A stretch of 55,164 bases of DNA from a virus (lineage: Duplodnaviria; Caudoviricetes), in IMG/VR virus record IMGVR_UViG_3300046466_000192, positions 1 to 55,164 of that record. One strand, written 5' to 3'. This document shows positions 7,715 to 40,343 of the stretch, one piece after another. Numbering within the stretch: position 1 is the stretch's first letter; the number at the start of each line of letters is the position of its first letter. The notes beneath the pieces are model-generated. The model searched no databases. It was not told the DNA's origin and saw only the letters and a program-made list of their open reading frames with translations. The position numbers and the translations under genes are program-made.

Positions 7715-7910
7715 TATCGGTAAAGATTATAAAAATGAAGCTATGCACTACTCCGTAGGTCAAGAGGTCTACGGAGGGCATACTATTTGTCATATAACAG
7801 AAGAAGACGATAAGTTCAGTATATTTATTAAAAAAAATGACGAGGTTTTACCTTGGAAAGACTTTAATAAAAACATGGCTGTAGCTGTTGAGTATAACTT
7901 AGAGTATTAA
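7692..7910 (+). CDS. Hypothetical protein
   Basis: 72-aa ORF coupled to both neighbours (TAATG junction with next gene). Confidence 0.7.
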   Translation: MKLIRKISIGKDYKNEAMHYSVGQEVYGGHTICHITEEDDKFSIFIKKNDEVLPWKDFNKNMAVAVEYNLEY

Positions 7911-8503
7911 TGAAAAGTATTTTTGACTTTGTTATAGAACCTATTGGATCTAGATATAACAACACTAAAGAGATTGAAGGTAAAAAACTTATACTAAATA
8001 CTCAAATATTTACACATCAAAGCGTTAATAGGCTTGCAAAAGTTAAAAGTGTACCAATAACAGGTGACACTAATATTAAGGTAGGTGATCAAGTTATTGT
8101 TCACCATAACGTTTTTAGAAGGTTTCATGACATAAGAGGTGTTGAAAAAAATAGCAGAAGTTATATAGATGATAAAAATTATCTATGTTCTTTTGATCAA
8201 ATATTTTTATATAAAAACGAAGACGATTGGAAAGCACCTAAAGGCTATTCATTTGTAAAACCTATTGAATCTAATGATATTTTTAATCTTAACAACGAAA
8301 AACCTTATGTAGGAATATTAAAGTTCCTAGATGAAACAATAGATAGTGTTTTTGAAAAAGGTGATTTAGTTGGATTTACGCCTAGTAGCGAATATGAATT
8401 TGTTATAGATGGTGAAAGACTTTATAGAATTAGATCTCAAGCATTAACTATAAAGTATGAATATCAAGGAAACGAAAAAGAATATAATCCAAGCTGGACA
8501 TAA
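7910..8503 (+). CDS. Tandem GroES-like co-chaperonin
   Basis: Two GroES-like halves: FVIEP...IKVGDQVIV and FVKP...FEKGDLVGF...EFVIDGERLYRIR. Confidence 0.65.
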   Translation: MKSIFDFVIEPIGSRYNNTKEIEGKKLILNTQIFTHQSVNRLAKVKSVPITGDTNIKVGDQVIVHHNVFRRFHDIRGVEKNSRSYIDDKNYLCSFDQIFLYKNEDDWKAPKGYSFVKPIESNDIFNLNNEKPYVGILKFLDETIDSVFEKGDLVGFTPSSEYEFVIDGERLYRIRSQALTIKYEYQGNEKEYNPSWT

Positions 8504-8732
8504 GGCTGTTGAAGAGCTAATTAAAGTAGCTAAAGAAGCTATTGTTGATTCAGATGATGATATATCAGCTGATAGACTTAAAAATGCTGCTGCTACTAAA
8601 AAACTAGCTATATTTGATGCTTTTGAAATATTAAACAGAATACAGGAAGAAGAGGATATGTTGAATGAAAAACCTAAAAAAGTAGAAGAAAAGAAGGCTT
8701 TTGGTGGTTTTGCAGAAAGAAGATCTAAATAA
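8457..8732 (+). CDS. Putative terminase small subunit
   Basis: 91-aa helical protein immediately upstream of and coupled (TAATG) to terL; positional inference. Confidence 0.5.
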   Translation: MNIKETKKNIIQAGHKAVEELIKVAKEAIVDSDDDISADRLKNAAATKKLAIFDAFEILNRIQEEEDMLNEKPKKVEEKKAFGGFAERRSK

Positions 8733-10948
8733 TGTACCAGCAATCGCTTTACAAGGTTGTAGAACCTATAAAAATAAATACCGTAAAAAGACTTAATAAG
8801 TCTAAAAGCTGGAAATATGGTTATAACAAAGAGCATGATGTTGTAGTTATAAGCAGAACGGGTCAGATTGGCGAAGTGTATAGCATACAAAACCTGCATA
8901 TAGCTTTACCTAAAAAACCTACAAATGTTTTTAAGTTTAATAAAAATACTTGGGAAAAATCTGAATATCCAAAAGAATTAAGTAAAATAAAAACAGTTTT
9001 TGACTGGAAGGAATATCCAGAAGAATTTAAAGAAAAATGGTATGATTACATCGATAATGAGTTTACTCGTAGGGAAGAAGGTTTTTGGTTTTACAATAAA
9101 AACGTTCCTACTTACGTTACTGGTACTCATTACATGTACTTGCAGTGGAGTAAAATCGACGTTGGAGCACCGGACTTTCGCGAGTCAAATAGATTATTCT
9201 ATATTTTCTGGGAGGCTTGTAAGGCCGATCACAGATCCTATGGGATGTGCTATCTTAAGAATAGGCGATCTGGATTCTCATTTATGGCATCAGGCGAGGT
9301 GGTTAACATGGCAACCATATCCTCTGACTCTAGATATGGAATATTATCTAAGAGTGGACCAGATGCGAAGAAGATGTTTACTGACAAGGTGGTACCAATA
9401 TCCATTAATTACCCCTTCTTTTTCAAGCCCATCCAGGACGGAATGGATCGTCCAAAGACCGAGCTTGCCTTCAGGGTCCCAGCCAGTAAGCTTACCAGAA
9501 GAAAACTTACCAGCAACGAAGCCTTACAGGAACTCGAGGGTCTCGACACCACGATCGACTGGAAGAATACGGGTGACAACTCCTACGACGGTGAGAAGCT
9601 TAAACTCCTCGTCCACGACGAGAGCGGTAAATGGGAGAGGCCGAACAACATCCTCAACAACTGGCGTGTTACGAAAACCACCCTACGACTAGGTAGTAGA
9701 GTAATTGGAAAGTGTATGATGGGTTCAACATCAAATGCTTTAGATAAAGGTGGTGATAATTTTAAAAAATTATATAAAAACTCAGATGTTACAAAAAGAA
9801 ACCGCAATGGACAGACAAGCTCAGGATTATATAGTTTGTTCATACCTATGGAATGGAACTACGAAGGATTCATTGATTCTTATGGCTTACCTGTATTCGA
9901 TACACCCGAGCAAGAAACTTTTGGTCCCTATGGGGAAAATATAGATATAGGAATACTAGAGCATTGGCAAAACGAAGCTGATGGTTTAAAAAATGATGGA
10001 GATGCTTTAAATGAATTTTATAGACAATTTCCACGTACTGAAGAACATGCTTTTAGAGATGAAACTAAAAACAGTATATTTAATTTAGCTAAAATATACG
10101 AACAAATAGATTTTAACGAAGAAGCTAACTATGATAACACTATAACTACTGGTAATTTTCAGTGGGTAAATGGAGTTAAAGATAGTAAAGTTATATTTTA
10201 TCCAGATAAAAATGGTAGATTTAAATTAAGCTGGACACCTCCAGTTCATTTACAAAACAATATTATATTAAAAAATGGATTAAAAAAACCAGGCAATGAA
10301 CACATGGGTTGCTTTGGTTGTGACAGCTACGATATATCAGGAACTGTAGACGGCAAGGGCTCAAAAGGCTCTTTACACGGTTTAACAAAGTTTAGTATGG
10401 AAGATTCTCCAGCTAATCATTTCTTTTTAGAGTATATAGCTAGGCCCCAGACTGCTGAGATATTCTTTGAGGACGTTCTAATGGCACTTGTATTTTACGG
10501 GATGCCTATACTAGCAGAAAATAATAAACCCCGTCTATTGTATTATTTAAGAAGGCGTGGTTATAGAGGTTTTAGTATGAATAGACCTGATAAAGTTTGG
10601 AATAAACTATCTGTTGCTGAAAAAGAAGTAGGTGGTATACCAAACTCAAGCGAAGATATAAAACAATCACACGCTGCTGCTATTGAAATGTATATACAAG
10701 ATCACGTAGGTGTGAAGCAAGACGGAAGCTATGGTACGGTTTATTTTAATGAGCTGTTAAACGACTGGGCTAAGTTTGATATAAATAATAGAACTAAATT
10801 CGATGCTTCTATAAGTTCTGGTTTAGCTATAATGGGCTGTAATAGACATTTATACGCTCCAAATGCTAAAATAGAAAAACAAAAAATAAATATAAGTTTT
10901 GCTAGATATAAACAAGGCGGAACACATTCAAAATTAATAGAAAATTAA
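8732..10948 (+). CDS. terL: Terminase large subunit
   Basis: Walker A-like KNRRSGFS, Walker B LLVHDE, coupling motif GSTSN, RNase H-like FGCDSYD; upstream of portal. Confidence 0.9.
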   Translation: MYQQSLYKVVEPIKINTVKRLNKSKSWKYGYNKEHDVVVISRTGQIGEVYSIQNLHIALPKKPTNVFKFNKNTWEKSEYPKELSKIKTVFDWKEYPEEFKEKWYDYIDNEFTRREEGFWFYNKNVPTYVTGTHYMYLQWSKIDVGAPDFRESNRLFYIFWEACKADHRSYGMCYLKNRRSGFSFMASGEVVNMATISSDSRYGILSKSGPDAKKMFTDKVVPISINYPFFFKPIQDGMDRPKTELAFRVPASKLTRRKLTSNEALQELEGLDTTIDWKNTGDNSYDGEKLKLLVHDESGKWERPNNILNNWRVTKTTLRLGSRVIGKCMMGSTSNALDKGGDNFKKLYKNSDVTKRNRNGQTSSGLYSLFIPMEWNYEGFIDSYGLPVFDTPEQETFGPYGENIDIGILEHWQNEADGLKNDGDALNEFYRQFPRTEEHAFRDETKNSIFNLAKIYEQIDFNEEANYDNTITTGNFQWVNGVKDSKVIFYPDKNGRFKLSWTPPVHLQNNIILKNGLKKPGNEHMGCFGCDSYDISGTVDGKGSKGSLHGLTKFSMEDSPANHFFLEYIARPQTAEIFFEDVLMALVFYGMPILAENNKPRLLYYLRRRGYRGFSMNRPDKVWNKLSVAEKEVGGIPNSSEDIKQSHAAAIEMYIQDHVGVKQDGSYGTVYFNELLNDWAKFDINNRTKFDASISSGLAIMGCNRHLYAPNAKIEKQKINISFARYKQGGTHSKLIEN
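9057..9692 (+). CDS. Candidate overprinted gene in +1 frame of terL (membrane/lipoprotein-like)
   Basis: Stop-free for 230 codons (9000-9692). From ATG 9057: KK, hydrophobic stretch, then TCTCSG. S/T/P/R-rich tail. Coincides with a GC-rich patch. Confidence 0.45.
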   Translation: MSLLVGKKVFGFTIKTFLLTLLVLITCTCSGVKSTLEHRTFASQIDYSIFSGRLVRPITDPMGCAILRIGDLDSHLWHQARWLTWQPYPLTLDMEYYLRVDQMRRRCLLTRWYQYPLITPSFSSPSRTEWIVQRPSLPSGSQPVSLPEENLPATKPYRNSRVSTPRSTGRIRVTTPTTVRSLNSSSTTRAVNGRGRTTSSTTGVLRKPPYD

Positions 10949-27658: not shown

Positions 27659-30600
27659 ATGGAAGAATTAGAATTAATTGTTGACCGAATGATAAAAGCC
27701 GGTGAGCCAGAAGAGGCTATTGCTGGAGTAGTTAAGAGTTACACATCGGGAAAGACATCAGACCCAGTAATAAAGGAGGCGAGTACCGGGTCAAAAGAAG
27801 ATACGGCCTCACAATCGGAAGATACTTTTTCGGAATCACCGTTTTGGAACCACGATGAGACCCAAGAAAAACAAGGTTATTTTGAAGAAACTTTTGGTAA
27901 AGGGCTTTTAACAAACTTAGCAGATGACTTTACAAGAATCATTGGTGGTGGTAATGCTCAGGGAGCTGGTGTAAATGAAGCTTTTGATTTATACAAGTTT
28001 GGTCCTGAAATGACAGACGAACAATATCAAGATTTAATTGACGCGTCTAGAAGATTAGAAGAGTATGGTCAAACAGATGAGATGATATACGCTAGCCAGC
28101 AGTATGAAAAATACAAAAAAGAAGGAGATGGTGGTGTTAAAGCTTGGTTAAAAGCTTATATTACTTTAGACAACCCAACAGCTCTACCTCAATACATGGT
28201 TCAGTCTCTTGTTGGTATGGGTAGGTCTTTAGTAGATTCAGAAGAGGTTGCTGGTTTTGCCGCAGCAGGTGCTGGAACTGGTGCTGGTTTAGGCGCAGGT
28301 GGTGGAGCTGCTGTTGGATCTGTTTTTGCGGGAGTAGGTGCTGTTCCCGGTGCTGCGATTGGTGCTAAACTTGGTGCTGTGTCTGGTTTTATGGGTGGTT
28401 TATCAGGTGCTATGGAAACTTCATTAACAACAATGGATCTAGTTAGAGAGAAAGCAATTGAAAACGGTGTTGATTGGAGTAATTCTACAGACGAGCAAAG
28501 AATACAAGCTATAAAAGACATAACAAACAACAAAGAATCTTTTGATGATTTAAAAAGCAAAGCATTAGCAAGAGGTGTAACCATAGGTGTTATAGATGCC
28601 GCAACTGGTGTTGTTACAATGGGTGCTGCAAAAGGTGTTGGAGGACTTACTACTAAAAGCGTTTTAAGCTCAGCTACTAAGCCTTTATCCGCCACAGCTG
28701 CTGCTATAACTGAATCTGGTGGTGGTATAGCTAGTGAGTATTACGGTCAAAAAGCAGCGGGTCAAGAGTTCAATCTTGAAGAAATAATGATAGAAGGCTT
28801 CGCGGATAAAACATTTACAACCGTAGGCATAGCAAAAGGAGCTTTCACTGGTTCACCCAAGTATTCTATAAACGGTGAAACAATGAATGGTAAAAAGTTT
28901 CACGATGCCATAAAGCTAATGGATGACGAGGCTTATGTATCTGCTGATATAAAAGTAGAAAATTCTCCAGCTGTAGAAAGAGTTGTAAATAACAGGCGTA
29001 GTAATATAAATTTAGATCAAAAGGTAGATAGTAGAATAAATAACAGCGATGATAGATCAACGGTTATAAAGTTGATGAAAGAACAAAAGTCTTTAAATAA
29101 AAATAAAGAAGGTAACGCTAGTAGATTAGCTGAGATACAAGAAGAGATAAATACTATAAATGAAAAATACAAAGGCAACAAGGTAGATGTTACTATAGAA
29201 CAAAGAAAACAAGCTGTAGCAAAAGCTATAGATGATAAATTTGAAGCATCGTTTAATAAAAACTTAAAAGCTGTCAAAGAAGCCGCGGCTAAAAAAGATA
29301 CAACCATAGATGTATTTGAAGATGATGACGCTTACTATAATAAGATAGCGGAAAATCAAAATATTACTCCACAAGAGGCTAAAACAAAAGCAAAAGGTAG
29401 TGACGGTGTTTTTGTAGGTAAAGGTCAGATATTCATAAATAAAGCTCAAGCTAAAAAAGTTGGAGCTGTTGGAGTAGCAAGTCATGAATTTTTACACCCT
29501 GTGTTGAACGCCGCTATAGGCAATAGTAAACAACAGGGTAAAATTGTTTCTGATTTTAAAAAATCATTAACTAGCAAACAAAGAGCTTATGTAGATAAAA
29601 AGCTTAAAGCAAACTACGATCCTTCACAGTGGGACACTGAGTATTTAAATATATTTTCTGATGGTATACAAAATGGTGATATAAACTATGATCAAACGTT
29701 GTTTGAAAAGATAGGTGAATCAATAAAAAGATTTTTTGTAGGTCAAGGTTTTGATAATATATCATTTGATAGTGGTAGAGACGTATACAACTTCTTAAAA
29801 GAGTACAATACTAGTATTAAAAAGGAGGGTAAAGTTAGCAAAAAAGCTATGGATGCTATAACAGCAGCTGAGCAAAAGACTGGTAGAAAAGTTGGCAGCG
29901 TTGAAACCGTTGGTAACATGCAGATGTCAAGAACAGAAGACGTTGCTGAGGTAAATAGAATATACGAGGCAAACGAAAATAAAGATATTGCTGGTTTTGA
30001 AATAGCTGATAAGTATAGAGGTATGGCTGAGTCTACTTTTAAATCACTAAGAGATGGTTCTAACTACACTAACGATCAAAAAGATGTACTAGATCAGAAT
30101 AAAGAAGATATAATAGCTATGATGCTTTATGATAAAATACCTAGTCAAAAAGAAACATCAAAAGCTAGAAACGTAGTTGGTTTAGTTAAAGACTTTGTAA
30201 AAGAAAAGCAAAAATATAGAAACGTTGCGGCTTATATAAATACATTTTTTAAAGAAAGATCAAAAGAAGCTTTTAAATACTATGTTAAGGATGCTGTATT
30301 AGAAGGTATGACAACTGAAGATGGTACTCTTAAATCATCTGTTGCTAAAAAAACATCAAAACAGAGTAGTGTAAACCAGGGTAAAGAAGCTAGGAAGTTA
30401 ACCAGCTTTGACAAATTAAAATCTAAAAAAGAATCTTTTTTAACACCAGCTTTAAAAAAATCTATATTTAACGAAGTATCAAAAAATATAAAACTAGTTG
30501 TAGCTAAAACAGGAACTAACCTACAATCAGCTATTAACTCTATGGAAAGCATAGTTAATAACGAGGTTAGAAAAATAGTAACTAAAGACTTAGGTAATAT

Positions 30601-33600
30601 AAGTAAAAAGAAAGGTGAAGTTGTTATTGACGCTAATTATGAATTACATCTTAGAGAAAACTATGATATAAGTATAGCCGCTTTACCTCTTGATGTTATA
30701 AAAAAGTCTTACGGAAAGCTTTTTAATTTAACTAAAACTGGTAGAGAAAAAACAGCTGTAGGTAAAGGTACTTTTCAAATGACAAAGCCTAGTAAAATAG
30801 ACTGGATAAAACATCACACGGTTGGAGGTTACACTACTTTGTTAGCTAGACAAAAAACATATGCTACAAGTATATCTAATGAGTTTGTTAAAAACGAACT
30901 TATAAAACTAAAAAGTGATCCTGTCTTTATGAACGAATTAGCTGATATTGCTAATTTAAGTCAGTCAGATGTAAACGTGACAGCAATAGAAGCTTCTATA
31001 GATAAACTAATAAATGCTTTAGATAGAAAAAAAGGAGAAGCAAAAGGTTTTGACACAACACTTCAGTTTTCAATAACAGAAAATCAAGCTCAAGATATAA
31101 TACAAAACAAAGAGGCTATATTAGAAGGTATAAGACAACTAGGTGATTCTATTACAAGTAGTACGGTTGGCTTAATGCTTAATAAAACCCTAGACCCAGG
31201 TGTTTGGACGTCTAAAGATGTAGCTAACTACAGAGCGGCAATAACAAAAGCTATAACAAAGTTTGTTAAATATGAAGATCAAAATGTTGATTTAAGTAAA
31301 ATGATACTTGAAGAGGTTGCTACAGATTCAGTGGCAACTAATTTGTCTAGAATATTTAATCTAAATTCATTAGATATAGTTGTAAATGGTATTACTCAAA
31401 AGTTTAAAAACTTTGGTCAAATATTTACACTTAAAAAATACGTTTCAAGACAAAGAAATCATTACTTATCTTATGCCGATGAAACTATAAACAGTGTAGA
31501 TGATGTAATAAATCATTTAAAACACTTTAGAGGCCACATGACTAGTGCTGGTAAAAAATATTTTTTAGTAAAAAGAAACCAAATATTTTCAGGAAACCAA
31601 GATTATATAGATAGTTTAAATAAAATATTAGAGCCTAAAAGTATTCGTATAAATGCAGTAACTAAAGGTAATGGAACAAGTATTTTAAGCATAACAGATT
31701 TAGATGGTAATATACTTGAAATTACTGATTCAGAAGGAAACGCTACTGTTTTAAATGAAAAAGGTGTAAAAGCAGCTATAACAACACCGGCTCAATCTGG
31801 TTATGTAGGCAGTGGTAAAACTAAAAGGGTTAAGAGTAAACAAGCTTTTAAAGATGAACTTGATATTAGAAAAAAATCTGCGGACGAAGCTTGGAATAAT
31901 CTAATAAGTTTATTAACCTATATAAAGAAAAACGGTAGTCCACTTGATTTTGCTATGACCATGATGAGTTTAAAATCTAATATGGCTAGTATGTTAAAGG
32001 CTGCGGCGCCTGTAGAATATTATTTTGTTGGGCCAAATGTTGATACTGTTGTTTACGAGCATATAATACCTACTGAATATATAGTGTTAAAACTAACTCA
32101 GCATTTTTATGGCGCTCCTATAGACTTAAACGCTTTAAAAGATAGATATAAAGTGGCTATAGTTCCAGAAATTATGGATAACAACATAAATATACAAAGA
32201 CAAAAGGTCATGCCTGCTTACTGGAACGAGTCTATGCACGAAACTTTAAGGTATTTTGATGAGTTAACTCTTGGTATGAACAACATGTTTGTTATAGAGT
32301 CTTTAACTGATGGTGTTAAATATGGCGAAAATCATGCTAAAGTGTCTAGCTTGCAGTTTTCTAGAACAAATTTAGAAAAACAAACAATGTTAAATAAAGC
32401 AATACAGATAGCTAGAAATCCTTTTGCACCTGAAAAAGGTATTAGTGTATTTGATTTTGACGACACTATAGCTAGATCAAATAGCAAAGTTAGTTATACT
32501 CTTCCTGATGGAACTCAAGGTAAGATAAATGCTACTGAGTTTGCTTTACAGTCTGCGGATCTTGAAGCTGCTGGTGCTACGTTTGATTTTAGCGAGTTTA
32601 ACAAAGTTGTAGAAGGTAAAAAAGGTCCTTTATTTGACCTTGCTATGAGACGACAAGATAAGTTTACAAGTAAAGACATTTTTATATTAACAGCAAGACC
32701 ACAAGAAGCCGCGATAGCAATACACGCTTTTCTAAAAGGATTAGGTCTTACTATACCTATAGAGAATATAACAGGTTTGGCAGATGGTAGGCCATCAGCT
32801 AAGTCTGATTGGATAATAAGTAAGGCGGCTGAAGGTTATAATAATTTTTATTTTGCTGACGACGCTTATAAAAACGTGAAAGCTGTTCAAGATGTTTTAG
32901 ATGTAATAGATGTAAAAAGAGATGTTCAACAAGCTAAACTACAGTTTTCTAGAACAATGGAAGAACAGTTTAACGACATACTAGAACAAACAAAAGGAGT
33001 TAAGTCTGAAAAAAGATTTTCCGACGCAGCAGCTAGATCAAGAGGTAAAGACATTGGTAAGTGGAAGTTTTTCTTACCACCATCAGCAGAAGACTTTGTA
33101 GGTTTAATATATAGCTTTTTAGGAAAAGGCAAAGTTGGTGAAGCTCAAATGGAGTTTTTTAATAAAACTCTTGTTAAACCATTTGCTAGAGCAATGGACG
33201 AGTTGAATAGAACTAAACAAGCTTTAGCTAATAACTTTAGAGCTCTTAAAAAAGCGTATCCAGAGGCTGCTAAAAAATTATCTAAGATAACACCTTATAA
33301 CAATTTTACCTATAGTACAGCTGTTAGAGTTTACATATGGACTAAAGCAGGTATTACGATACCAGGATTATCTAAAACAGATATAAAAAGATTAAATGAA
33401 ATAGTACAAAACGATAAAGAGCTTAAACAGTTTGCTGATGCTATTGATTTAATGACAAAGGAAAGAGGTTTTCCTGCGCCTGGTGAAAACTGGTTAGTGG
33501 GTAACTTAGCAACAGATATAAAAGATATAACCGATAAAGTAGGTAGAAAAGAGTTTTTAGCAGAGTGGATAGCAAATAAAGAAGTTATATTTAGCAAAGA

Positions 33601-35017
33601 AAATTTAAACAAAATAGAGGCTATATATGGTAGTAATTTTAGAGAAGCACTTGAAGATATGCTCTATCGTATGGAAAATGGCACAAATAGGAACTTTGGT
33701 AAGAACAGATTAGTTAATTCTTTCTCAAATTGGGTGAATAATAGTGTAGGTGCTATAATGTTTTTTAACATGAGATCAGCTATACTTCAAACTATATCTT
33801 TTGTTAACTTTATAAACTGGAGTGACAACAACCCTTTGAATTTTGCTAAAGCTATATTAAACACTAAACAGTTTTCTAAAGATTTCGTAACTTTATTTAA
33901 CTCAGACATGCTTAAGCAAAGAAGATCTGGTATTGGTAGAGATGTAAACGAATCTGAGATAGCCGAGGCAATGAGCGGTGCTAGAAACAAACCTCAAGCT
34001 ATATTAAATTATTTGCTCAGAATAGGTTTTACACCAACGCAAATAGCGGATAGCTTTGCAATATCTATGGGTGGAGCTGCTTTTTATAGAAACAGAATAA
34101 ATACATACCTAAAACAAGGTATGACACAGGAGCAAGCTTTAGATCAAGCTTTTAAAGACTTTCAAGAAACTACTGAAGTTTCTCAGCAGTCTTCAAGACC
34201 TGATATGATTAGCCAGCAGCAAGCTGGTCCACTAGGTAGATTAATATTAGCTTTTCAGAATACACCTATGCAGTACACTAGATTAATAAAGAAGGCTTTT
34301 CTTGATTTAATGGCTGGTAGAGGCGATGCTAAAACTAATATGTCTAAAATTTTATACTACGGAGCTGTGCAAAACTTTATATTTGCAGCAATGCAATCAG
34401 CTTTATTTGCAATGCTATTTGACGACGATGAAGATGAAGATAAGTATGGTAAAAAGAAAACTAGAATAGCAAACACAATGACAGATTCTATACTTAGAGG
34501 TTCTGGTATATTTGGAGCTGGTATTTCAACTATGAAAAATATGATATTAAAATTCATGGAACAAGAAGAAAAAGGTTGGAATGCTGATCACGCTTACACG
34601 GTGATAGAAGCGGCTAACTTATCACCACCTATTGGTTCTAAACTAAGAAAATTATATTCTGGTATACAAACATATAAATTTAATAAAGACGTAATATCAC
34701 ATAAAGGTTTTAGCTTAGACAATCCTATATTGCAAACAGGTGGTAATGTGGTTTCAGCTATAACAAATATACCTTTAGATAGAGTTGTTAACAAATACAA
34801 TAATTTAAGAGGAGTTGCTAATAGTAAAAACGAGAGCTGGCAAAGACTAGCCATGCTGCTAGGTTGGAACTCTTGGGATGTTGACGCTGAAATAGATCCT
34901 GAACTTGAAGGTTTAAAAAAGAGATTAAAAAAGAGAAAAAAGTTAAAGAAAAAAATATCAGCTTCTGAAAAAGCTAGAAGAGACGCTATAAGAAAAAAAT
35001 ACTACCAAAATAACTAA
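27659..35017 (+). CDS. Giant multidomain ejection (polyvalent) protein
   Basis: 2452 aa: G/A-rich hydrophobic N-region, zincin HEFLH (aa 609), EHIIP motif, HAD domain DFDDT/TAR/K/DD, LPD38-like helical C-terminus (AFQNTPMQY). Confidence 0.8.
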   Translation: MEELELIVDRMIKAGEPEEAIAGVVKSYTSGKTSDPVIKEASTGSKEDTASQSEDTFSESPFWNHDETQEKQGYFEETFGKGLLTNLADDFTRIIGGGNAQGAGVNEAFDLYKFGPEMTDEQYQDLIDASRRLEEYGQTDEMIYASQQYEKYKKEGDGGVKAWLKAYITLDNPTALPQYMVQSLVGMGRSLVDSEEVAGFAAAGAGTGAGLGAGGGAAVGSVFAGVGAVPGAAIGAKLGAVSGFMGGLSGAMETSLTTMDLVREKAIENGVDWSNSTDEQRIQAIKDITNNKESFDDLKSKALARGVTIGVIDAATGVVTMGAAKGVGGLTTKSVLSSATKPLSATAAAITESGGGIASEYYGQKAAGQEFNLEEIMIEGFADKTFTTVGIAKGAFTGSPKYSINGETMNGKKFHDAIKLMDDEAYVSADIKVENSPAVERVVNNRRSNINLDQKVDSRINNSDDRSTVIKLMKEQKSLNKNKEGNASRLAEIQEEINTINEKYKGNKVDVTIEQRKQAVAKAIDDKFEASFNKNLKAVKEAAAKKDTTIDVFEDDDAYYNKIAENQNITPQEAKTKAKGSDGVFVGKGQIFINKAQAKKVGAVGVASHEFLHPVLNAAIGNSKQQGKIVSDFKKSLTSKQRAYVDKKLKANYDPSQWDTEYLNIFSDGIQNGDINYDQTLFEKIGESIKRFFVGQGFDNISFDSGRDVYNFLKEYNTSIKKEGKVSKKAMDAITAAEQKTGRKVGSVETVGNMQMSRTEDVAEVNRIYEANENKDIAGFEIADKYRGMAESTFKSLRDGSNYTNDQKDVLDQNKEDIIAMMLYDKIPSQKETSKARNVVGLVKDFVKEKQKYRNVAAYINTFFKERSKEAFKYYVKDAVLEGMTTEDGTLKSSVAKKTSKQSSVNQGKEARKLTSFDKLKSKKESFLTPALKKSIFNEVSKNIKLVVAKTGTNLQSAINSMESIVNNEVRKIVTKDLGNISKKKGEVVIDANYELHLRENYDISIAALPLDVIKKSYGKLFNLTKTGREKTAVGKGTFQMTKPSKIDWIKHHTVGGYTTLLARQKTYATSISNEFVKNELIKLKSDPVFMNELADIANLSQSDVNVTAIEASIDKLINALDRKKGEAKGFDTTLQFSITENQAQDIIQNKEAILEGIRQLGDSITSSTVGLMLNKTLDPGVWTSKDVANYRAAITKAITKFVKYEDQNVDLSKMILEEVATDSVATNLSRIFNLNSLDIVVNGITQKFKNFGQIFTLKKYVSRQRNHYLSYADETINSVDDVINHLKHFRGHMTSAGKKYFLVKRNQIFSGNQDYIDSLNKILEPKSIRINAVTKGNGTSILSITDLDGNILEITDSEGNATVLNEKGVKAAITTPAQSGYVGSGKTKRVKSKQAFKDELDIRKKSADEAWNNLISLLTYIKKNGSPLDFAMTMMSLKSNMASMLKAAAPVEYYFVGPNVDTVVYEHIIPTEYIVLKLTQHFYGAPIDLNALKDRYKVAIVPEIMDNNINIQRQKVMPAYWNESMHETLRYFDELTLGMNNMFVIESLTDGVKYGENHAKVSSLQFSRTNLEKQTMLNKAIQIARNPFAPEKGISVFDFDDTIARSNSKVSYTLPDGTQGKINATEFALQSADLEAAGATFDFSEFNKVVEGKKGPLFDLAMRRQDKFTSKDIFILTARPQEAAIAIHAFLKGLGLTIPIENITGLADGRPSAKSDWIISKAAEGYNNFYFADDAYKNVKAVQDVLDVIDVKRDVQQAKLQFSRTMEEQFNDILEQTKGVKSEKRFSDAAARSRGKDIGKWKFFLPPSAEDFVGLIYSFLGKGKVGEAQMEFFNKTLVKPFARAMDELNRTKQALANNFRALKKAYPEAAKKLSKITPYNNFTYSTAVRVYIWTKAGITIPGLSKTDIKRLNEIVQNDKELKQFADAIDLMTKERGFPAPGENWLVGNLATDIKDITDKVGRKEFLAEWIANKEVIFSKENLNKIEAIYGSNFREALEDMLYRMENGTNRNFGKNRLVNSFSNWVNNSVGAIMFFNMRSAILQTISFVNFINWSDNNPLNFAKAILNTKQFSKDFVTLFNSDMLKQRRSGIGRDVNESEIAEAMSGARNKPQAILNYLLRIGFTPTQIADSFAISMGGAAFYRNRINTYLKQGMTQEQALDQAFKDFQETTEVSQQSSRPDMISQQQAGPLGRLILAFQNTPMQYTRLIKKAFLDLMAGRGDAKTNMSKILYYGAVQNFIFAAMQSALFAMLFDDDEDEDKYGKKKTRIANTMTDSILRGSGIFGAGISTMKNMILKFMEQEEKGWNADHAYTVIEAANLSPPIGSKLRKLYSGIQTYKFNKDVISHKGFSLDNPILQTGGNVVSAITNIPLDRVVNKYNNLRGVANSKNESWQRLAMLLGWNSWDVDAEIDPELEGLKKRLKKRKKLKKKISASEKARRDAIRKKYYQNN
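32354..32957 (+). repeat. 16-nt direct repeats flanking HAD domain
   Basis: CAGTTTTCTAGAACAA at 32354-32369 and 32942-32957, both in frame (QFSRT). Confidence 0.8.
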
Positions 35018-36257: not shown

Positions 36258-36545
36258 ATGGCAGCACCAGAAATAGGAGAGAACACAAAGGTAACTCTAG
36301 ATTTAAAAACAATAGGATTAATAATAGGTGGAGTAGTTTCACTAGCTAGTATGTATTTTATAATGCAAGCAGATATTGCTCTTGCTATGGAAATGCCTAA
36401 ACCTGTTATTGATAGAGTAGAATATGATTTAAAAGACGAGTTGATACGTCAAACAATTATGGACACTCAAGATGATGTAGAGGAGATAAAAGAGACTATA
36501 GATAAAATAGATCAAAGACTTTACGAAATACAAAAAAATAGATAA
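36258..36545 (+). CDS. Single-TM coiled-coil protein (holin/XhlA- or i-spanin-like)
   Basis: Likely start ATG 36258 after A/T-rich leader; TM IGLIIGGVVSLASMYFIM followed by coiled coil. Confidence 0.6.
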   Translation: MAAPEIGENTKVTLDLKTIGLIIGGVVSLASMYFIMQADIALAMEMPKPVIDRVEYDLKDELIRQTIMDTQDDVEEIKETIDKIDQRLYEIQKNR

Positions 36546-36958
36546 TGAAATACTTAATTTTACTTTTTACGGTACCACTGCTTTCAATTAGTCAAGTAGA
36601 CGTGCCAGAGGAATACTGGATAAATGATTCTAATTTTGAAGAGTCTATAAGCAAAAAATCAGCTTTTGGTGACGAAGATAACAAACCTGTTTTAGTAGAG
36701 TTTTGGGCAGAGTTTAATAAAGCAAATTGTTTTTCTGATTGGGAAAAGGTTGAAAATGTTACGTATTACAGAGTAAATATAGCTGAGGCACCTGAGGCAA
36801 AAAAGAAATACAGAGTACGTATGGCACCTACTCTTATAATATTTAAAAACGGTATTAAAGAAAAAGTTTTTAAAGCAGGTTTAGATCTTGTGTTGCCTGC
36901 AGATTTAAAAGAAATACAAGATAGTATAGACGAAATAAATACAGCAAATAAATTTTAA
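36545..36958 (+). CDS. Secreted thioredoxin-fold protein lacking CxxC
   Basis: Signal peptide; KPVLVEFWAEFN in place of FWAxWCxxC; cis-Pro loop MAPTLIIFKNG. Confidence 0.7.
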   Translation: MKYLILLFTVPLLSISQVDVPEEYWINDSNFEESISKKSAFGDEDNKPVLVEFWAEFNKANCFSDWEKVENVTYYRVNIAEAPEAKKKYRVRMAPTLIIFKNGIKEKVFKAGLDLVLPADLKEIQDSIDEINTANKF

Positions 36959-36961
36959 ATT

Positions 36962-37195
36962 ATGTGGAAATTAACTAAACAGTACTGGAAGGACATGTGG
37001 AAAGCTTTATGGAGCAAAACAACTATAGATGAAAAAGCAATAGCTACAGTACAAGAAATTAAAAAAAGATATAAACTCACAGCTGCGGAACTAGCTGACG
37101 TAGCAGACGCTATTAAAGAAGTTGGTAATCAAATTGGAGACATAGATGACGCTGTAAAAGGCAAGGCTAGAAAAGGTAGAAAAACAAAAAAATAA
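36962..37195 (+). CDS. Hypothetical amphipathic protein
   Basis: 77 aa, Trp-rich amphipathic N-helix, basic tail. Confidence 0.65.
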   Translation: MWKLTKQYWKDMWKALWSKTTIDEKAIATVQEIKKRYKLTAAELADVADAIKEVGNQIGDIDDAVKGKARKGRKTKK

Positions 37196-37549
37196 ATGAA
37201 AAAAATTATAGCTTTATTACTTATCCCGTATTTTTCAATGGCTCAACTAGATATATACGGTTGGGAAGTTCAAGAAGATAAAGCTATGCATTATTTAGCT
37301 GGTGCTGCTATAACTAGTATATCTCACGATTTAATTTTTGAGCATACTAAAAGTAAAGAAAAAGCTATAATGTATTCTATCGCTACTACTTTAGCTGTAG
37401 CGACTTTTAAAGAAGTTTTTATAGATAGAGGGCATGGTGATGGTCAAGATATAGCGGCTAGTATGTATGGCGCAATAACTGTAGGCGTCGCGATAGAGCT
37501 TGATGGTTTATTTAGAAAAAAAAGAAATAAAATAAAATGGAAAAAATAA
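37196..37549 (+). CDS. YfiM/VanZ-like membrane protein
   Basis: Signal peptide, DKxxH...KE..D...D.AA...G motif with hydrophobic helices. Confidence 0.55.
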   Translation: MKKIIALLLIPYFSMAQLDIYGWEVQEDKAMHYLAGAAITSISHDLIFEHTKSKEKAIMYSIATTLAVATFKEVFIDRGHGDGQDIAASMYGAITVGVAIELDGLFRKKRNKIKWKK

Positions 37550-37998
37550 GCAAACACGTAAGTTACCGTGAAGGTGTGTATAGCAGAACAGCGGAGAGAC
37601 TTGGTTTGAAAAATGATCCTACTGATGAGCATCTAGCTAATATGAAGCTTATTGCAGAAAAAGTGTTTGAACCTCTTAGAGTACACGTAGGTGGTCCTAT
37701 AAAGATTAATTCCTTTTATCGTGGTCCAGAATTAAACAAAGCTGTCGGTGGATCTTCAAAATCACAACATTGTCACGGTCAAGCAATTGATATTGATGAT
37801 ACTTTTGGTCATGCAACTAATGCTGAAATGTATAAATACATAAAAGAAAACTTAAACTTTGATCAGATGATATGGGAATTTGGTACAGATGAGAATCCTA
37901 ATTGGGTTCACGTGAGCTACGTTAGCGAAGACAAAAATAGAAACAGATGCTTAAAAGCTTATAAAGAAAATAACAAAACTAAATACATGATAATATGA
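37537..37998 (+). CDS. Endolysin, peptidase M15 family
   Basis: SFYR...N..VGG..SQHCHGQAIDI...WVHVSY with Zn ligands H/D/H. Confidence 0.85.
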   Translation: MEKISKHVSYREGVYSRTAERLGLKNDPTDEHLANMKLIAEKVFEPLRVHVGGPIKINSFYRGPELNKAVGGSSKSQHCHGQAIDIDDTFGHATNAEMYKYIKENLNFDQMIWEFGTDENPNWVHVSYVSEDKNRNRCLKAYKENNKTKYMII

Positions 37999-38219
37999 GT
38001 ACACCATTTAAAAGAAAAGGATGTGGACCTAGAGGCTTAGGAGCTCCAAAAGGATCACCACTTAAGAAAAACCTAGACGAAACTGATCCTTGGCAGGGTG
38101 TACCTTTTAAAGGTGCAAACTCTAGTAACTCTAGCTGTTGGAAAGGCTACAAAAAAGTAGGTACTAAAAAATCACCCACAAATCCAGGGGTAACCGTAAA
38201 CGATTGTAAAAAAATATAA
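37995..38219 (+). CDS. Small basic protein with CWKGY motif
   Basis: 74 aa; CWKGYKKVGTKK...VNDC. Confidence 0.6.
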   Translation: MSTPFKRKGCGPRGLGAPKGSPLKKNLDETDPWQGVPFKGANSSNSSCWKGYKKVGTKKSPTNPGVTVNDCKKI

Positions 38220-38220
38220 T

Positions 38221-38508
38221 ATGACTTGGTTAGCTAGACAAAGATCAGCAAGTCCCTTTAAAGAAATAAAGAAAACTACTAAGGGTGAAGGTAGAAACTT
38301 TAGGTCTACCGAAGAGGGCGCTGGTATGACATCAAAAGGTGTTAAAGCTTATAAAGCTCAAAACCCAGGTAGTAATCTGCAAACAGCTGTTACAGGTGAT
38401 GTGGAGCCAGGTAGTAAAGATGCTAGAAGAAGAAAAGCATTTTGCGCTAGATCAAAAGGCTGGACAGGTGAAAGAGGTAGAGCTGCTAGAAAAAGATGGA
38501 GATGTTAA
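38221..38508 (+). CDS. Small basic protein (DUF6321-like)
   Basis: GAGMTSKGVKAY..NPGS.L...ARRRKAFCARS...RWRC pattern. Confidence 0.6.
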   Translation: MTWLARQRSASPFKEIKKTTKGEGRNFRSTEEGAGMTSKGVKAYKAQNPGSNLQTAVTGDVEPGSKDARRRKAFCARSKGWTGERGRAARKRWRC

Positions 38509-38624: not shown

Positions 38625-40343
38625 TTAGCCATCACACGCAATACAATCTTCATTCATCGCTTGCTGTGCAATATCTCCACGTAAGACAGATTCTGTCCTC
38701 GTATAATATAAGGTTTTAACACCCTTTTTCCATGCTTCAAAATGAACTTTGTTTATCCATTTTGGTGTAGCTACACTAGGAAAAGCTAAGTTTAAACTAA
38801 CTGACTGATCTACATATTGCTGTCTCAGTCCAGCTTGATTAACTAATTCTAGTTGATTAATTTCCTTAAAAGTTTTAAATACCTCTTTTGCTGGCGTGTC
38901 ATGGGCCATGATAATATCATCAAGCTCACTAATGTTTTGTACACTACCACCATCAGCCATGATCTTGTCCCATGTTTCATTTGTGTTTATTTTAAGTTTT
39001 CTTAACAACTTTACTAGTGTAGGATTTTTTCGTATAAACGTACCTTTAGCAGACTGTTCCGTAAATACATTAGCAGCCCAAGGTTCTATTCCTGGCGAAA
39101 CATTTCCCGAAAGCTTGCTATTGCTAACAGTGGGAGCAACAGCACGCAAATGAGTATTACGATAACCAGAGCCGCTACACCACAGAGGTTCACCGTATGT
39201 TTCAGCAAGAGCCATAGAAGCTCTTTCGCTTTCAATTTTAATTTGACTAAAAATTTTCCTAGTTTCAAACTGAGCGAGTAAACCCTCGAAACTGATCCCT
39301 TTTTCTTGTAAGTACGTGTGCCAGCCCAAAACTCCAAGGCCAAGCGCTCTTCCTTTGGTAGCTGAGCGGACCGCGTTTTCAAATCCTCGTAAACCTTTAG
39401 CTCTTTGTATAAACTCTTCCATGACTCCGTCAAGAAACCATATACTATCATAAATAAGGTTTGTACCCTTCCATTCTTCATATTTTGCTAGATTTAATGA
39501 TGATAAACAACAAACAAAGCTGTGGTTTTCATCTGTGTGTAATGTTATCTCTGAACATATATTTGTCATGTGTACTTTGAGACCGTTGTCTTTATAGGCT
39601 TTTGGGTTATTCTTATTTGTATTCCCTTTAAATAAGATATAAGGTTCTCCAGTAGCTTTACGTTTTTGAAGAAGCTTTCCCCAACGTTTTCTTGCTTGTT
39701 TATCTCCAGCTTCAAGTCTTCGCATGAATTTATCGCCGACAACAGCACATTGGTGCAGGTTGAGAGATTGACGGTTAACGTCTCCTTTGGGTTCACGTAT
39801 TTCAAGCCACTCATCGAAATCGGCGTGATCAATATTGATATTAACTGACGCTGCTCCTCGTCTGACAGATCCTTGATTAGTGGCAAGTATAGTTGAGTCG
39901 TATATTTTACAAAACGGCACAACTCCATCACTTGTTCCATTTCCAGTTATTTTAGCTCCGGCGGGTCTAATTTGATTTATACCGACACCAACTCCACCGC
40001 CGTGCTTAGCGAGTAGCATCATCTCTAAATTTTTTTGTCCTATGTCCTGTATCGAGTCTGCAACATCAATGCCAAAGCAAGATATAGGTAAACCGCGATC
40101 AGTCCCTGTATTTGATAAAACAGGACTAGCCAGACACAGCCAACCATTCCAAATATAATCAAAGAACGTTCCGGCCATTTCAGGTTTGTAAAGTCTACGC
40201 GCAACCGTTTTAGCAACTCGCATGTATGCATCACGAGGTGTTTCATCTTGTAATAAATATCCACCAGATATAGTTTTTTTATAAACATCTGTATCACCCC
40301 ATTTAGGGTAATCTTCTCCTTTTTTCCATTCATTATTCCACAT
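38625..40343 (-). CDS. nrdA: Class I ribonucleotide reductase alpha subunit (no ATP cone)
   Basis: PISCF, TNICSE, CCLSS, TLYY and C-terminal CIAC motifs. Confidence 0.95.
   Translation of the reverse strand: MWNNEWKKGEDYPKWGDTDVYKKTISGGYLLQDETPRDAYMRVAKTVARRLYKPEMAGTFFDYIWNGWLCLASPVLSNTGTDRGLPISCFGIDVADSIQDIGQKNLEMMLLAKHGGGVGVGINQIRPAGAKITGNGTSDGVVPFCKIYDSTILATNQGSVRRGAASVNINIDHADFDEWLEIREPKGDVNRQSLNLHQCAVVGDKFMRRLEAGDKQARKRWGKLLQKRKATGEPYILFKGNTNKNNPKAYKDNGLKVHMTNICSEITLHTDENHSFVCCLSSLNLAKYEEWKGTNLIYDSIWFLDGVMEEFIQRAKGLRGFENAVRSATKGRALGLGVLGWHTYLQEKGISFEGLLAQFETRKIFSQIKIESERASMALAETYGEPLWCSGSGYRNTHLRAVAPTVSNSKLSGNVSPGIEPWAANVFTEQSAKGTFIRKNPTLVKLLRKLKINTNETWDKIMADGGSVQNISELDDIIMAHDTPAKEVFKTFKEINQLELVNQAGLRQQYVDQSVSLNLAFPSVATPKWINKVHFEAWKKGVKTLYYTRTESVLRGDIAQQAMNEDCIACDG

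What the first reader, a model, noticed from the sequence alone, without database searches (positions are those of the whole stretch)
9000..9692. Candidate gene overprinted on the terminase ATPase domain
Seen: the +1 frame of terL is stop-free for 230 codons. terL codons here switch to C/G-ending (63/120 GC at 9541-9660 versus 14/60 at 9721-9780, manual counts) and revert right after the overlapping TAG at 9692. From ATG 9057 the product has KK, a hydrophobic stretch and TCTCSG (imperfect lipobox), an aromatic middle and an S/T/P/R-rich tail. Known: lambda Rz1 is a lipoprotein nested in the +1 frame of Rz. Inference: a hidden membrane/lipoprotein gene such as the otherwise missing o-spanin. 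Caveat: T-ending codons give hydrophobic residues in +1 automatically, and a recombined GC-rich patch could also open the frame.
Basis: partly seen in the sequence, partly recalled or inferred. Interest (0 to 1): 0.75.

Follow-up and report, generated by a model that had tools for sequence, protein, structure and literature searches.

The report
Hidden gene inside phage terminase gene
A marine phage carries a second, previously unannotated gene of about 216 codons written in another reading frame inside its DNA-packaging (terminase) gene, and many diverged relatives keep it open, so it is very probably a real protein, a membrane-anchored one of unknown role.

Summary

It is more than chance. 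13 of 78 relatives chosen by terL similarity keep the same frame open to the same stop, and so do 85 of 150 distinct loci overall. Synonymous-codon shuffles expect 5-7 stops against 0-1 observed, in this frame and this interval only. TA-ending Leu/Ile/Val codons are 3% before purines and 54% before pyrimidines; relatives without the ORF show no such gap.

Third bases shift in opposite directions, to T in a hydrophobic N-terminal segment and to C/G in the tail. A plain GC patch does not explain that.

The likely gene is ATG 9042..TAG 9692 (216 aa). It encodes an N-terminal membrane helix ending in an invariant CTCSG, then about 180 residues of basic, Pro/Ser/Thr/Arg-rich, predicted-disordered tail.

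It has been lost about ten times, and GC3 then relaxes to background.

The lipoprotein/o-spanin reading is not supported: 0 of 87 have a canonical lipobox. Function is unknown. No translation data exist.

The parts
8732..10948 (+). terL (large terminase), 738 aa; host gene of the overlap
   Evidence: ORF list; PHROG 6681 E 3.3e-169
9042..9692 (+). Nested gene in the +1 frame of terL, 216 aa (ATG 9042 to TAG 9690-9692). The open frame reaches back to TTG 9000; a second ATG lies at 9057
   Evidence: (ATG in 87 of 87 ORF-bearers, mostly at this position)
9102..9149 (+). Hydrophobic segment TFLLTLLVLITCTCSG (residues 21-36), the predicted membrane helix. It is made by T-ending terL codons and ends in the invariant CTCSG (9135-9149)
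   Evidence: T3 0.64 vs 0.46; z +3.7; TAC/TTG/CAG fixed in 99-100% of ORF-bearers vs 30-34% of the others; AF2 helix 2-34
9150..9689 (+). Basic Pro/Ser/Thr/Arg-rich tail of 180 residues (window: K+R 25, D+E 12, P 17, S 22, T 21), predicted disordered
9092..9692 (+). Stretch of raised GC3 of terL codons (0.4-0.7 in ORF-bearers, 0.2-0.3 in relatives without the ORF). It ends at the nested stop
9690..9692 (+). TAG stop of the nested gene. Relatives share this position; 50 of 85 distinct ORF-bearers stop two codons earlier

Best explanation
A real protein-coding gene has been overprinted in the +1 frame on the N-terminal (ATPase) part of terL. It occurs in a lineage of uncultured marine podophages related to phages of Flavobacteriia. 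Shown: the frame is kept open by selection, its codon choices are position-specific, and it is old, diverse and repeatedly lost. Inferred: it is translated by internal initiation at AUG 9042 on the late terL message; Bacteroidota do not use Shine-Dalgarno sites. Inferred: the N-terminal K-rich stretch plus a 16-residue hydrophobic helix acts as an uncleaved signal-anchor in the inner membrane. The orientation would be N-in/C-out, because the N flank carries +3 charges and the C flank about +1. Inferred: the 180-residue polycationic, Pro/Ser/Thr/Arg-rich disordered tail lies in the periplasm. My best guess at its role is a dispensable late accessory protein acting on the cell envelope at or near lysis, for example outer-membrane destabilisation or lysis timing. 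Odds: real selected coding gene about 0.85; membrane-anchored about 0.6; envelope or lysis role about 0.35-0.4; o-spanin in the strict sense about 0.05.
For: (1) Conservation. 13 of 78 distinct terL-selected relatives and 85 of 150 distinct loci overall have at most 1 stop over the 212-codon interval. In 50 of them that stop is the terminator two codons early. Their median pairwise synonymous codon difference is 0.42.
(2) Shuffles. Synonymous-codon shuffles that keep the terL protein and the local codon usage expect 4.6-7.1 stops; 0-1 are observed. The fraction of shuffles with no stop is at most 0.001 in each of the 14 fully open sequences, out of 17 tested. Eight relatives without the ORF have observed about equal to expected.
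(3) Specificity. Only the +1 frame is depleted (mean z -3.6; other frames +0.4 to +0.9). Only codons 108-319 are depleted (z -3.56; elsewhere -0.3 to -1.25).
(4) Codon context. TA-ending L/I/V codons are 50/1579 before a purine-starting codon, which would give +1 TAA/TAG, against 683/1256 before a pyrimidine. In relatives without the ORF the figures are 516/938 and 448/647.
(5) Boundaries. GC3 is 0.51 inside and 0.28 in the next 100 codons in ORF-bearers. It is 0.24-0.28 inside in the others.
(6) Opposite third-base shifts. T3 is 0.64 vs 0.46 in the membrane segment, but 0.14 vs 0.35 in the tail, where C3 is 0.40 vs 0.10.
(7) Fixed codons. 27 of 217 codons have a third base fixed in at least 85% of ORF-bearers and used by at most 50% of the others. 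These include choices unrelated to stops, which create CTCSG.
(8) Replacements. +1 replacements caused by terL-synonymous changes are more conservative than expected: z 5.3 over 44 independent pairs and 702 sites, against 1.8 in the control.
(9) Start codon. An ATG is present in 87 of 87.
(10) Family size. 62 called proteins at 41-69% identity, and 152 representatives of 50%-identity clusters.
(11) Structure. AF2 gives one N-terminal helix (residues 2-34) and the rest below pLDDT 50.
(12) RNA. Short contigs from RNA libraries, identical to the window, cover 9022-9249, 9208-9366, 9390-9540 and 9548-9754.
Against: Synonymous divergence of terL is not reduced over the ORF as a whole: 0.46 inside vs 0.40 outside in 91 pairs. 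It dips only at the membrane segment (ratio 0.56-0.75) and slightly near codons 290-305. The classic overlap signature is therefore weak.
49 of 78 terL-selected relatives carry 8 or more +1 stops, including L004 at 82% terL identity. A rooted tree needs 11 state changes, so the gene is dispensable.
The 80 loci of the second search were picked with +1-frame motifs and are biased towards ORF-bearers.
Sequences are related, and recombination could spread the patch; the statistics are not phylogenetically corrected beyond independent pairs.
There is no evidence of translation. RNA contigs cannot show the frame and could be DNA carry-over.
The start context has G at -3 in 67 of 87, whereas A at -3 favours initiation in F. 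johnsoniae (abstract of PMC6847099).
No family, fold or Atlas match gives a function.
The host is inferred only from terL relatives at 45% identity or less.
The tail's high positive charge argues against easy export.
Confidence: 0.8

Rival explanations
1. Untranslated by-product. A G+C-rich patch, acquired by recombination or kept for a DNA or RNA-level reason, opens the +1 frame by composition alone.
For: G+C-rich DNA has fewer off-frame stops. GC3 rises to 0.5-0.7 here. Synonymous divergence is not reduced overall. The product is predicted mostly disordered and has no known relatives.
Against: Shuffles that preserve the patch's own codon usage still expect 5-7 stops. The depletion is frame-specific and interval-specific. 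TA-ending codons are avoided only where they would make a +1 stop. Third bases shift towards T, not G/C, in the hydrophobic segment. The raised GC3 ends at the nested stop.
Confidence: 0.07
2. The +1 frame is read by programmed ribosomal frameshifting from terL. This would give a fusion of the TerL N-terminus (about 100 residues) to the hydrophobic and basic +1 sequence, not an independent protein.
For: In 44 of 87 ORF-bearers the +1 frame is open for 10-20 codons upstream of the first ATG, and in 4 more no stop lies within the 30 codons examined. Frameshift products are known in phage structural genes (general knowledge).
Against: An ATG is present in 87 of 87 between the last upstream stop and the hydrophobic segment. 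In 9 of 87 a stop lies 0-1 codons before that ATG, and in 30 it lies 3-6 codons before, leaving almost no room for a shift site. I did not look for a slippery motif, so none is known.
Confidence: 0.05
3. One reading: the product is an outer-membrane lipoprotein, the o-spanin missing from this phage.
For: It is nested in a +1 frame like lambda Rz1. It has an N-terminal K-rich and hydrophobic stretch followed by Cys. It has a Pro-rich unstructured tail and a conserved Cys pair. I saw no spanin pair beside the endolysin 37537..37998.
Against: 0 of 87 have G/A/S at position -1 of either Cys. The host gene is terL, not an i-spanin, and lies 27.8 kb from the endolysin. No i-spanin partner was seen. 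The mature part would be about 180 residues against 40 in Rz1 (PMC6139136, passages read). About ten independent losses have occurred.
Confidence: 0.05
4. The gene is real but the product is not an envelope protein. It would be a basic, DNA-binding or virion-internal protein made together with the packaging motor, with the hydrophobic helix serving assembly rather than membrane insertion.
For: Net charge after the helix is +16 on average, range +9 to +27. Such a charge disfavours export. The product is co-encoded with terL and so would be made at packaging time (inference).
Against: The hydrophobic run scores a mean of 2.36 (Kyte-Doolittle, best 17-residue window), is flanked by K/R and is strongly selected. 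That is typical of a membrane anchor. There is no DNA-binding fold or family match.
Confidence: 0.12

Closest known systems
Lambda Rz1 nested in Rz (embedded o-spanin)
   Same: A complete gene nested in the +1 frame of a late phage gene. The product is Pro-rich and unstructured, with an N-terminal export-like signal and conserved Cys (PMC6139136, passages read).
   Different: The host gene is terL, not an i-spanin. There is no canonical lipobox (0 of 87). The product is about 4 times longer and polycationic. The gene lies far from the lysis genes.
phiX174 E (lysis protein nested in the +1 frame of scaffold gene D); recalled from general knowledge, no call
   Same: A gene overprinted in +1 on an assembly gene, encoding an N-terminal transmembrane helix followed by a basic tail.
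   Different: E is 91 aa and is the sole lysis gene of a small ssDNA phage. This phage has an M15 endolysin. No sequence similarity was sought or found.
phiKT gp28 'disruptin' (bioRxiv 10.1101/515445, abstract read)
   Same: A cationic, membrane-associated phage product that could act on the outer membrane in a phage without spanins.
   Different: gp28 is a 56-aa amphipathic helix encoded as a free-standing gene. This product is 216 aa with a transmembrane-type helix and a disordered tail. No homology.
T4 holin T / antiholin RI class (one N-terminal TMD and a large periplasmic domain); recalled, no call
   Same: Size (T is 218 aa), a single N-terminal membrane segment, late expression.
   Different: T has a folded periplasmic domain and sits among lysis functions. 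Here the tail is predicted disordered and the gene lies in terL.

Membership tests
Overprinted (overlapping) viral gene | Alternative-frame ORF kept open in diverged relatives beyond what composition gives | tested here: met
   85 of 150 distinct loci are open. Shuffles expect 5-7 stops against 0-1 observed. The depletion is specific to the frame and the interval.
Overprinted (overlapping) viral gene | Reduced synonymous variability of the older gene across the overlap | tested here: inconclusive
   Overall not reduced: 0.46 inside vs 0.40 outside. It is reduced only at the membrane segment, ratio 0.56-0.75. 27 of 217 third bases are fixed.
Overprinted (overlapping) viral gene | Demonstrated translation of the second frame | not testable with these tools
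   Only short contigs from RNA libraries are available, and they cannot show the frame.
o-spanin (Rz1-like) | Lipoprotein signal with lipobox [LVI][ASTVI][GAS]C | tested here: not met
   Residue -1 is T 46, I 37, L 3, M 1 of 87. Before the second Cys it is T or S, with Cys at -2. The consensus is as quoted in PMC6139136.
o-spanin (Rz1-like) | Gene embedded in, overlapping or adjacent to an i-spanin gene in the lysis cassette | tested here: not met
   It is nested in terL. The endolysin is at 37537..37998, and none of its neighbours has an N-terminal TMD followed by a coiled coil.
i-spanin (Rz-like) | N-terminal TMD followed by periplasmic coiled-coil helices | tested here: not met
   An N-terminal helix is present, but residues 36-216 are below pLDDT 50, with only two short low-confidence helices. 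A weak model is not proof.
u-spanin (T1 gp11-like) | N-terminal lipobox and C-terminal TMD | tested here: not met
   No lipobox. In shuffle tests the highest hydropathy outside the N-terminus is below expectation, z -1.0.
Disruptin (phiKT gp28-like) | Short cationic amphipathic helical peptide | tested here: not met
   Cationic, yes: mean net charge +16. But it is 216 aa with a uniformly hydrophobic helix and a disordered tail. The functional analogy is not excluded.
Holin | Small membrane protein with at least one TMD and a charged C-terminus, encoded with the endolysin, that forms lethal membrane lesions | not tested
   A TMD and a charged tail are present, but the gene is not next to the endolysin. 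The 117-aa multi-hydrophobic ORF 37196..37549 directly upstream of the endolysin is a more ordinary holin candidate. Function cannot be tested here.

The most novel reading that the evidence does not exclude
The nested gene encodes a new class of envelope-disrupting lysis protein: an inner-membrane-tethered, polycationic, intrinsically disordered chain long enough to cross the periplasm and destabilise the outer membrane. It would do the job of spanins or disruptins in phages of Bacteroidota, where none have been recognised. Writing it inside terL would tie its dose and timing to DNA packaging.
Probability: 0.15. Interest if true: 0.85.

Novelty: new variant of a known kind. Interest (0 to 1): 0.68.

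Why it matters
terL is the most conserved gene of tailed phages and the standard marker for their phylogeny and for metagenomic surveys. It is treated as single-coding. A 650-base second gene inside its ATPase domain means that 'synonymous' sites there are not neutral, which affects dN/dS, codon-usage and GC-based analyses.

The gene is present in hundreds of marine viral contigs: 580 tblastn-confirmed stretches in IMG/VR and 152 clusters at 50% identity.

It also offers an unusually clean natural experiment on overprinting. There appears to be one origin and about ten independent losses, each followed by relaxation of GC3 to background. The new protein is shaped almost only through third-base choices: T gives a membrane helix, and C/G give a disordered basic tail.

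Gene callers that forbid nested genes miss it. In the three literature searches I ran I found no description of a gene nested in a large-terminase gene.

Tried and rejected
- Family and fold look-ups for the +1 product gave nothing usable. Pfam and PHROGs had no match and PADLOC none. NCBIfam gave only a 16-bit match (cut-off 625) of residues 12-52 to the N-terminal end of a beta-lactamase model; this is far below threshold and at most reflects a signal-peptide-like character. The PDB profile search gave nothing, and the ESM Atlas gave no usable hit.
- AF2 with 47 sequences gave pLDDT 40 and pTM 0.15. I ran no fold search because the model is too poor.
- tblastn of the +1 product against 50,697 deposited phage genomes gave no match. 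The nearest deposited relative, MW202828.1 (62% TerL identity), has 13 stops in the interval.
- I looked for a gene that replaces it in relatives without the ORF. I compared called proteins of 5 ORF-bearing records (the window plus 4) with 5 records lacking the ORF. No family was present in 4 or more of one set and at most 1 of the other in the direction that matters. The one family found in 3 of 5 non-bearers is a 250-275 aa protein with no hydrophobic segment. The non-bearer records are 58-75% complete fragments without the lysis and replication ends, so the comparison is weak.
- RNA fold of 9000-9090: -10 kcal/mol, z +1.1. This is unremarkable, though compatible with an unstructured start region.
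- RNA-library contigs show presence only; parts without cover mean nothing.
- One script call returned no answer; I repeated it with a lighter method.
- Supplementary tables of PMC6139136 (spanin and lipobox lists) could not be seen. They might list rarer lipobox variants.
Full report
**What is there**

The window is an IMG/VR virus record of 55,164 bases, linear and estimated 85% complete. ORF 8732..10948 (738 aa) matches PHROG 6681 'terminase large subunit' over its whole length (E 3.3e-169). A portal gene follows it, and a GroES-like gene and a 91-aa ORF precede it.

In the +1 frame of terL the ORF list gives 9000..9692, 230 aa from TTG, with ATGs at 9042 and 9057 and TAG at 9690-9692.

Against whole-gene synonymous shuffles of all 150 gene-frame combinations in the window, this ORF is the strongest outlier. 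It has 233 open codons, against a shuffle mean of 59 and a maximum of 104.

**Relatives**

A TerL search of IMG/VR found at least 600 related stretches, and the best 80 were kept (76-88% identity). In a codon alignment, 13 of them keep the +1 frame open for 210 or more codons over the same interval and end at the same stop. 43 have 10 or more stops there.

A search of 5.8 billion predicted proteins with the +1 product found 62 unnamed proteins, mostly 210-218 aa, at 41-69% identity. A profile search of 1.84 billion representatives found 152 clusters at 50% identity, 82 of them at E <= 1e-30.

A second IMG/VR scan used +1-frame motifs. It confirmed 580 stretches and kept 80; this set is biased towards ORF-bearers.

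In all, 154 loci cover the interval, and 150 are distinct (four pairs are duplicates). Of the 150, 85 have at most 1 stop, 16 have 2-7 and 49 have 8 or more. In 50 of the 85 the single stop is the terminator two codons early.

No deposited phage genome holds the ORF. TerL relatives among cultured phages infect Flavobacterium (45% identity), Cellulophaga (38%), Tenacibaculum and Maribacter. The closest deposited record, MW202828.1 (62%), has 13 stops in the interval.

**Is the open frame selected?**

I shuffled synonymous codons within the interval, keeping the TerL protein and the interval's own codon usage, and hence its GC3. The shuffles give 4.6-7.1 expected stops (sd about 1.5), against 0-1 observed. 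Of 17 sequences tested, each of the 14 fully open ones had no stop in at most 0.001 of 2000 shuffles. Eight relatives without the ORF show observed about equal to expected.

- The depletion is confined to the +1 frame: mean z is -3.6, against +0.8, +0.4 and +0.9 in the other frames that can vary.
- It is confined to codons 108-319: z is -3.56, against -0.7, -1.25 and -0.3 in three other parts of the same genes.
- The cleanest figure concerns Leu/Ile/Val codons ending in TA. In distinct ORF-bearers they are used 50 times in 1579 when the next codon starts with a purine, which would create TAA or TAG in +1. All 50 are the early terminator. They are used 683 times in 1256 when the next codon starts with a pyrimidine. 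In relatives without the ORF the figures are 516/938 and 448/647.

The ORF-bearers are not near-copies of each other. Their median pairwise synonymous codon difference is 0.42, and 11 of them differ mutually by 0.40 or more.

**Is it just a G+C-rich patch?**

No. In ORF-bearers GC3 is 0.51 inside the interval and 0.28 in the next 100 codons. In the others it is 0.24-0.28 inside and 0.28 after. The rise begins near codon 120 and ends at the nested stop.

More telling, third bases shift in opposite directions along the ORF.

| Segment | Base | ORF-bearers | Others |
|---|---|---|---|
| Hydrophobic segment | T3 | 0.64 | 0.46 |
| Hydrophobic segment | A3 | 0.06 | 0.24 |
| Tail | T3 | 0.14 | 0.35 |
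| Tail | C3 | 0.40 | 0.10 |

Because the third base of a terL codon is the middle base of the +1 codon, T gives hydrophobic residues and C/G give Ser/Pro/Thr/Ala/Arg/Gly. The pattern is what selection on the +1 protein would produce.

- The TerL peptide PTYITGTHYMYLQWS is near-invariant in all 81 sequences. Yet only ORF-bearers read LLxLLVLITCTCSG in +1; the others read strings such as NQHI*QVHIICIYNG.
- Hydropathy of that segment is z +3.7 against shuffles (40 of 88 ORF-bearers tested). It is z 0.1 in 30 of 50 non-bearers tested.
- 27 of 217 codons have a third base fixed in at least 85% of ORF-bearers and used by at most 50% of the others. These include TAC, TTG and CAG at codons 135-137, which have nothing to do with stops and which create Thr-Cys-Ser of the invariant CTCSG.
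- +1 replacements caused by terL-synonymous differences are more conservative than expected: z 5.3 over 44 independent pairs and 702 sites. In the control z is 1.8, probably from transition bias.

**What speaks against**

- Over the whole ORF, synonymous divergence is not lower than outside: 0.46 vs 0.40 in 91 pairs. In non-bearers it is 0.44 vs 0.43. It dips only at the membrane segment (ratio 0.56-0.75) and mildly at codons 290-305, and it is higher in the middle. Most of the +1 protein therefore evolves fast and is constrained in composition rather than in sequence, as expected of a disordered chain.
- Close relatives without the ORF exist.
- There are no translation data.

**History**

A TerL tree was built from the parts outside the overlap and rooted with MW202828.1. 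It shows a 54-tip clade that is all ORF-bearing and a mixed grade. Nested inside that grade is a 51-tip clade that wholly lacks the ORF. Parsimony needs 11 changes among 141 tips. Well-supported sister pairs differ in state: L076/L062, L011/L027 and L133/L055 (support 0.99-1.0).

In such pairs the third-base differences inside the interval are lopsided: GC to AT 49-71, AT to GC 11-21. Between two ORF-bearers they are balanced. The simplest reading is one origin followed by about ten losses, with GC3 relaxing to background after each loss. Spread by recombination is not excluded.

**The product**

87 of 87 ORF-bearers analysed have an ATG 20-31 codons before the Cys-x-Cys, most at the position of 9042. 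The commonest lengths are 216 and 214 aa.

The sequence upstream of the ATG is A-rich (AAAGAAAAA at -13 to -5) with G at -3 in 67 of 87, and it is not structured. Bacteroidota initiate without Shine-Dalgarno pairing, and A at -3 is favourable there (abstract of PMC6847099). The context is therefore permissive but not strong.

The protein begins with a K-rich stretch. Then comes a 16-residue hydrophobic run ending in CTCSG, followed by [VLPA][KR]. The remaining roughly 180 residues have P 9%, S 11%, T 11.5%, R 9.7% and a net charge of +16, range +9 to +27. AF2 with 47 sequences gives one helix (residues 2-34, pLDDT 52-70) and everything after residue 36 below 50.

By the positive-inside rule, applied to the flanks (+3 vs about +1), I infer N-in/C-out. 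The very basic tail makes this uncertain.

**Lipoprotein or o-spanin?**

The lipobox consensus is [LVI][ASTVI][GAS]C, and the variants verified in spanins still have G or A at -1 (PMC6139136, passages read). Here -1 is T, I, L or M in 87 of 87.

The gene sits in terL, 27.8 kb from the M15 endolysin (37537..37998). The endolysin's upstream neighbour, 37196..37549 (117 aa, several hydrophobic segments), is an ordinary holin candidate. I saw no i-spanin-like gene. The strict o-spanin reading therefore fails two defining tests.

A looser analogy remains open: an envelope-acting cationic protein in a phage with no recognised spanin, as with the phiKT disruptin (abstract read).

**Occurrence**

17 seawater DNA runs hold at least half of the sampled words of this terL. 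In RNA libraries from two studies, short contigs identical to the window cover 9022-9249, 9208-9366, 9390-9540 and 9548-9754. This is compatible with transcription in the sea, but it says nothing about the frame, and DNA carry-over is possible.

**Verdict**

It is very probably a real overprinted gene (about 0.85) encoding a membrane-anchored, basic, disordered protein, in a place where no second gene is expected. Three literature searches found no earlier description. Function is unknown. My best guess is a dispensable late envelope or lysis accessory. The specific lipoprotein/o-spanin idea is not supported.

Noticed in passing
window 38625..40343 (-), +1 frame: The ribonucleotide reductase large-subunit gene (Pfam PF02867) has the second most unusual alternative frame in the window. 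Its +1 frame has 133 open codons, against a shuffle mean of 69 and a maximum of 109. Three consecutive +1 ORFs of 97, 124 and 131 aa lie in it. Local G+C is 0.40-0.415.
   Followed up: partly
window 9752..9870 (terL codons 340-375): Among the 14 ORF-bearers of the first set, synonymous diversity of terL drops to 0.17-0.30 just downstream of the nested stop (ratio 0.46-0.69 to non-bearers). GC3 is somewhat raised there in both groups. A 64-aa +1 ORF, 9750..9944, lies there. Unexplained.
   Followed up: no
window 28201..28800: This is the second-highest G+C bin of the window (0.430, GC skew 0.30). It lies inside the 2452-aa gene 27659..35017 and coincides with a 164-aa antisense ORF, 28201..28695. 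It was not among the top 15 outliers in the shuffle scan.
   Followed up: partly
window 36962..38508: Lysis region: an M15 peptidase endolysin at 37537..37998 (Pfam PF08291, PHROG 894). It is preceded by a 117-aa ORF with an N-terminal signal-like stretch and further hydrophobic segments, which weakly matches PHROG 26616 'lipoprotein' but has no Cys lipobox. A thioredoxin-like secreted protein lies at 36545..36958. No spanin pair was recognised.
   Followed up: partly
window 8457..8732: A 91-aa helical, charged ORF ends exactly at the terL start and overlaps the end of the GroES-like gene 7910..8503 by 47 bases. It has no family match. By position it is a possible small terminase.
   Followed up: no
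P0031, P0062: Two database proteins switch between the TerL frame and the +1 frame along their length. These are probably contigs with indel errors, not natural fusions. They were left out of alignment A2.
   Followed up: no
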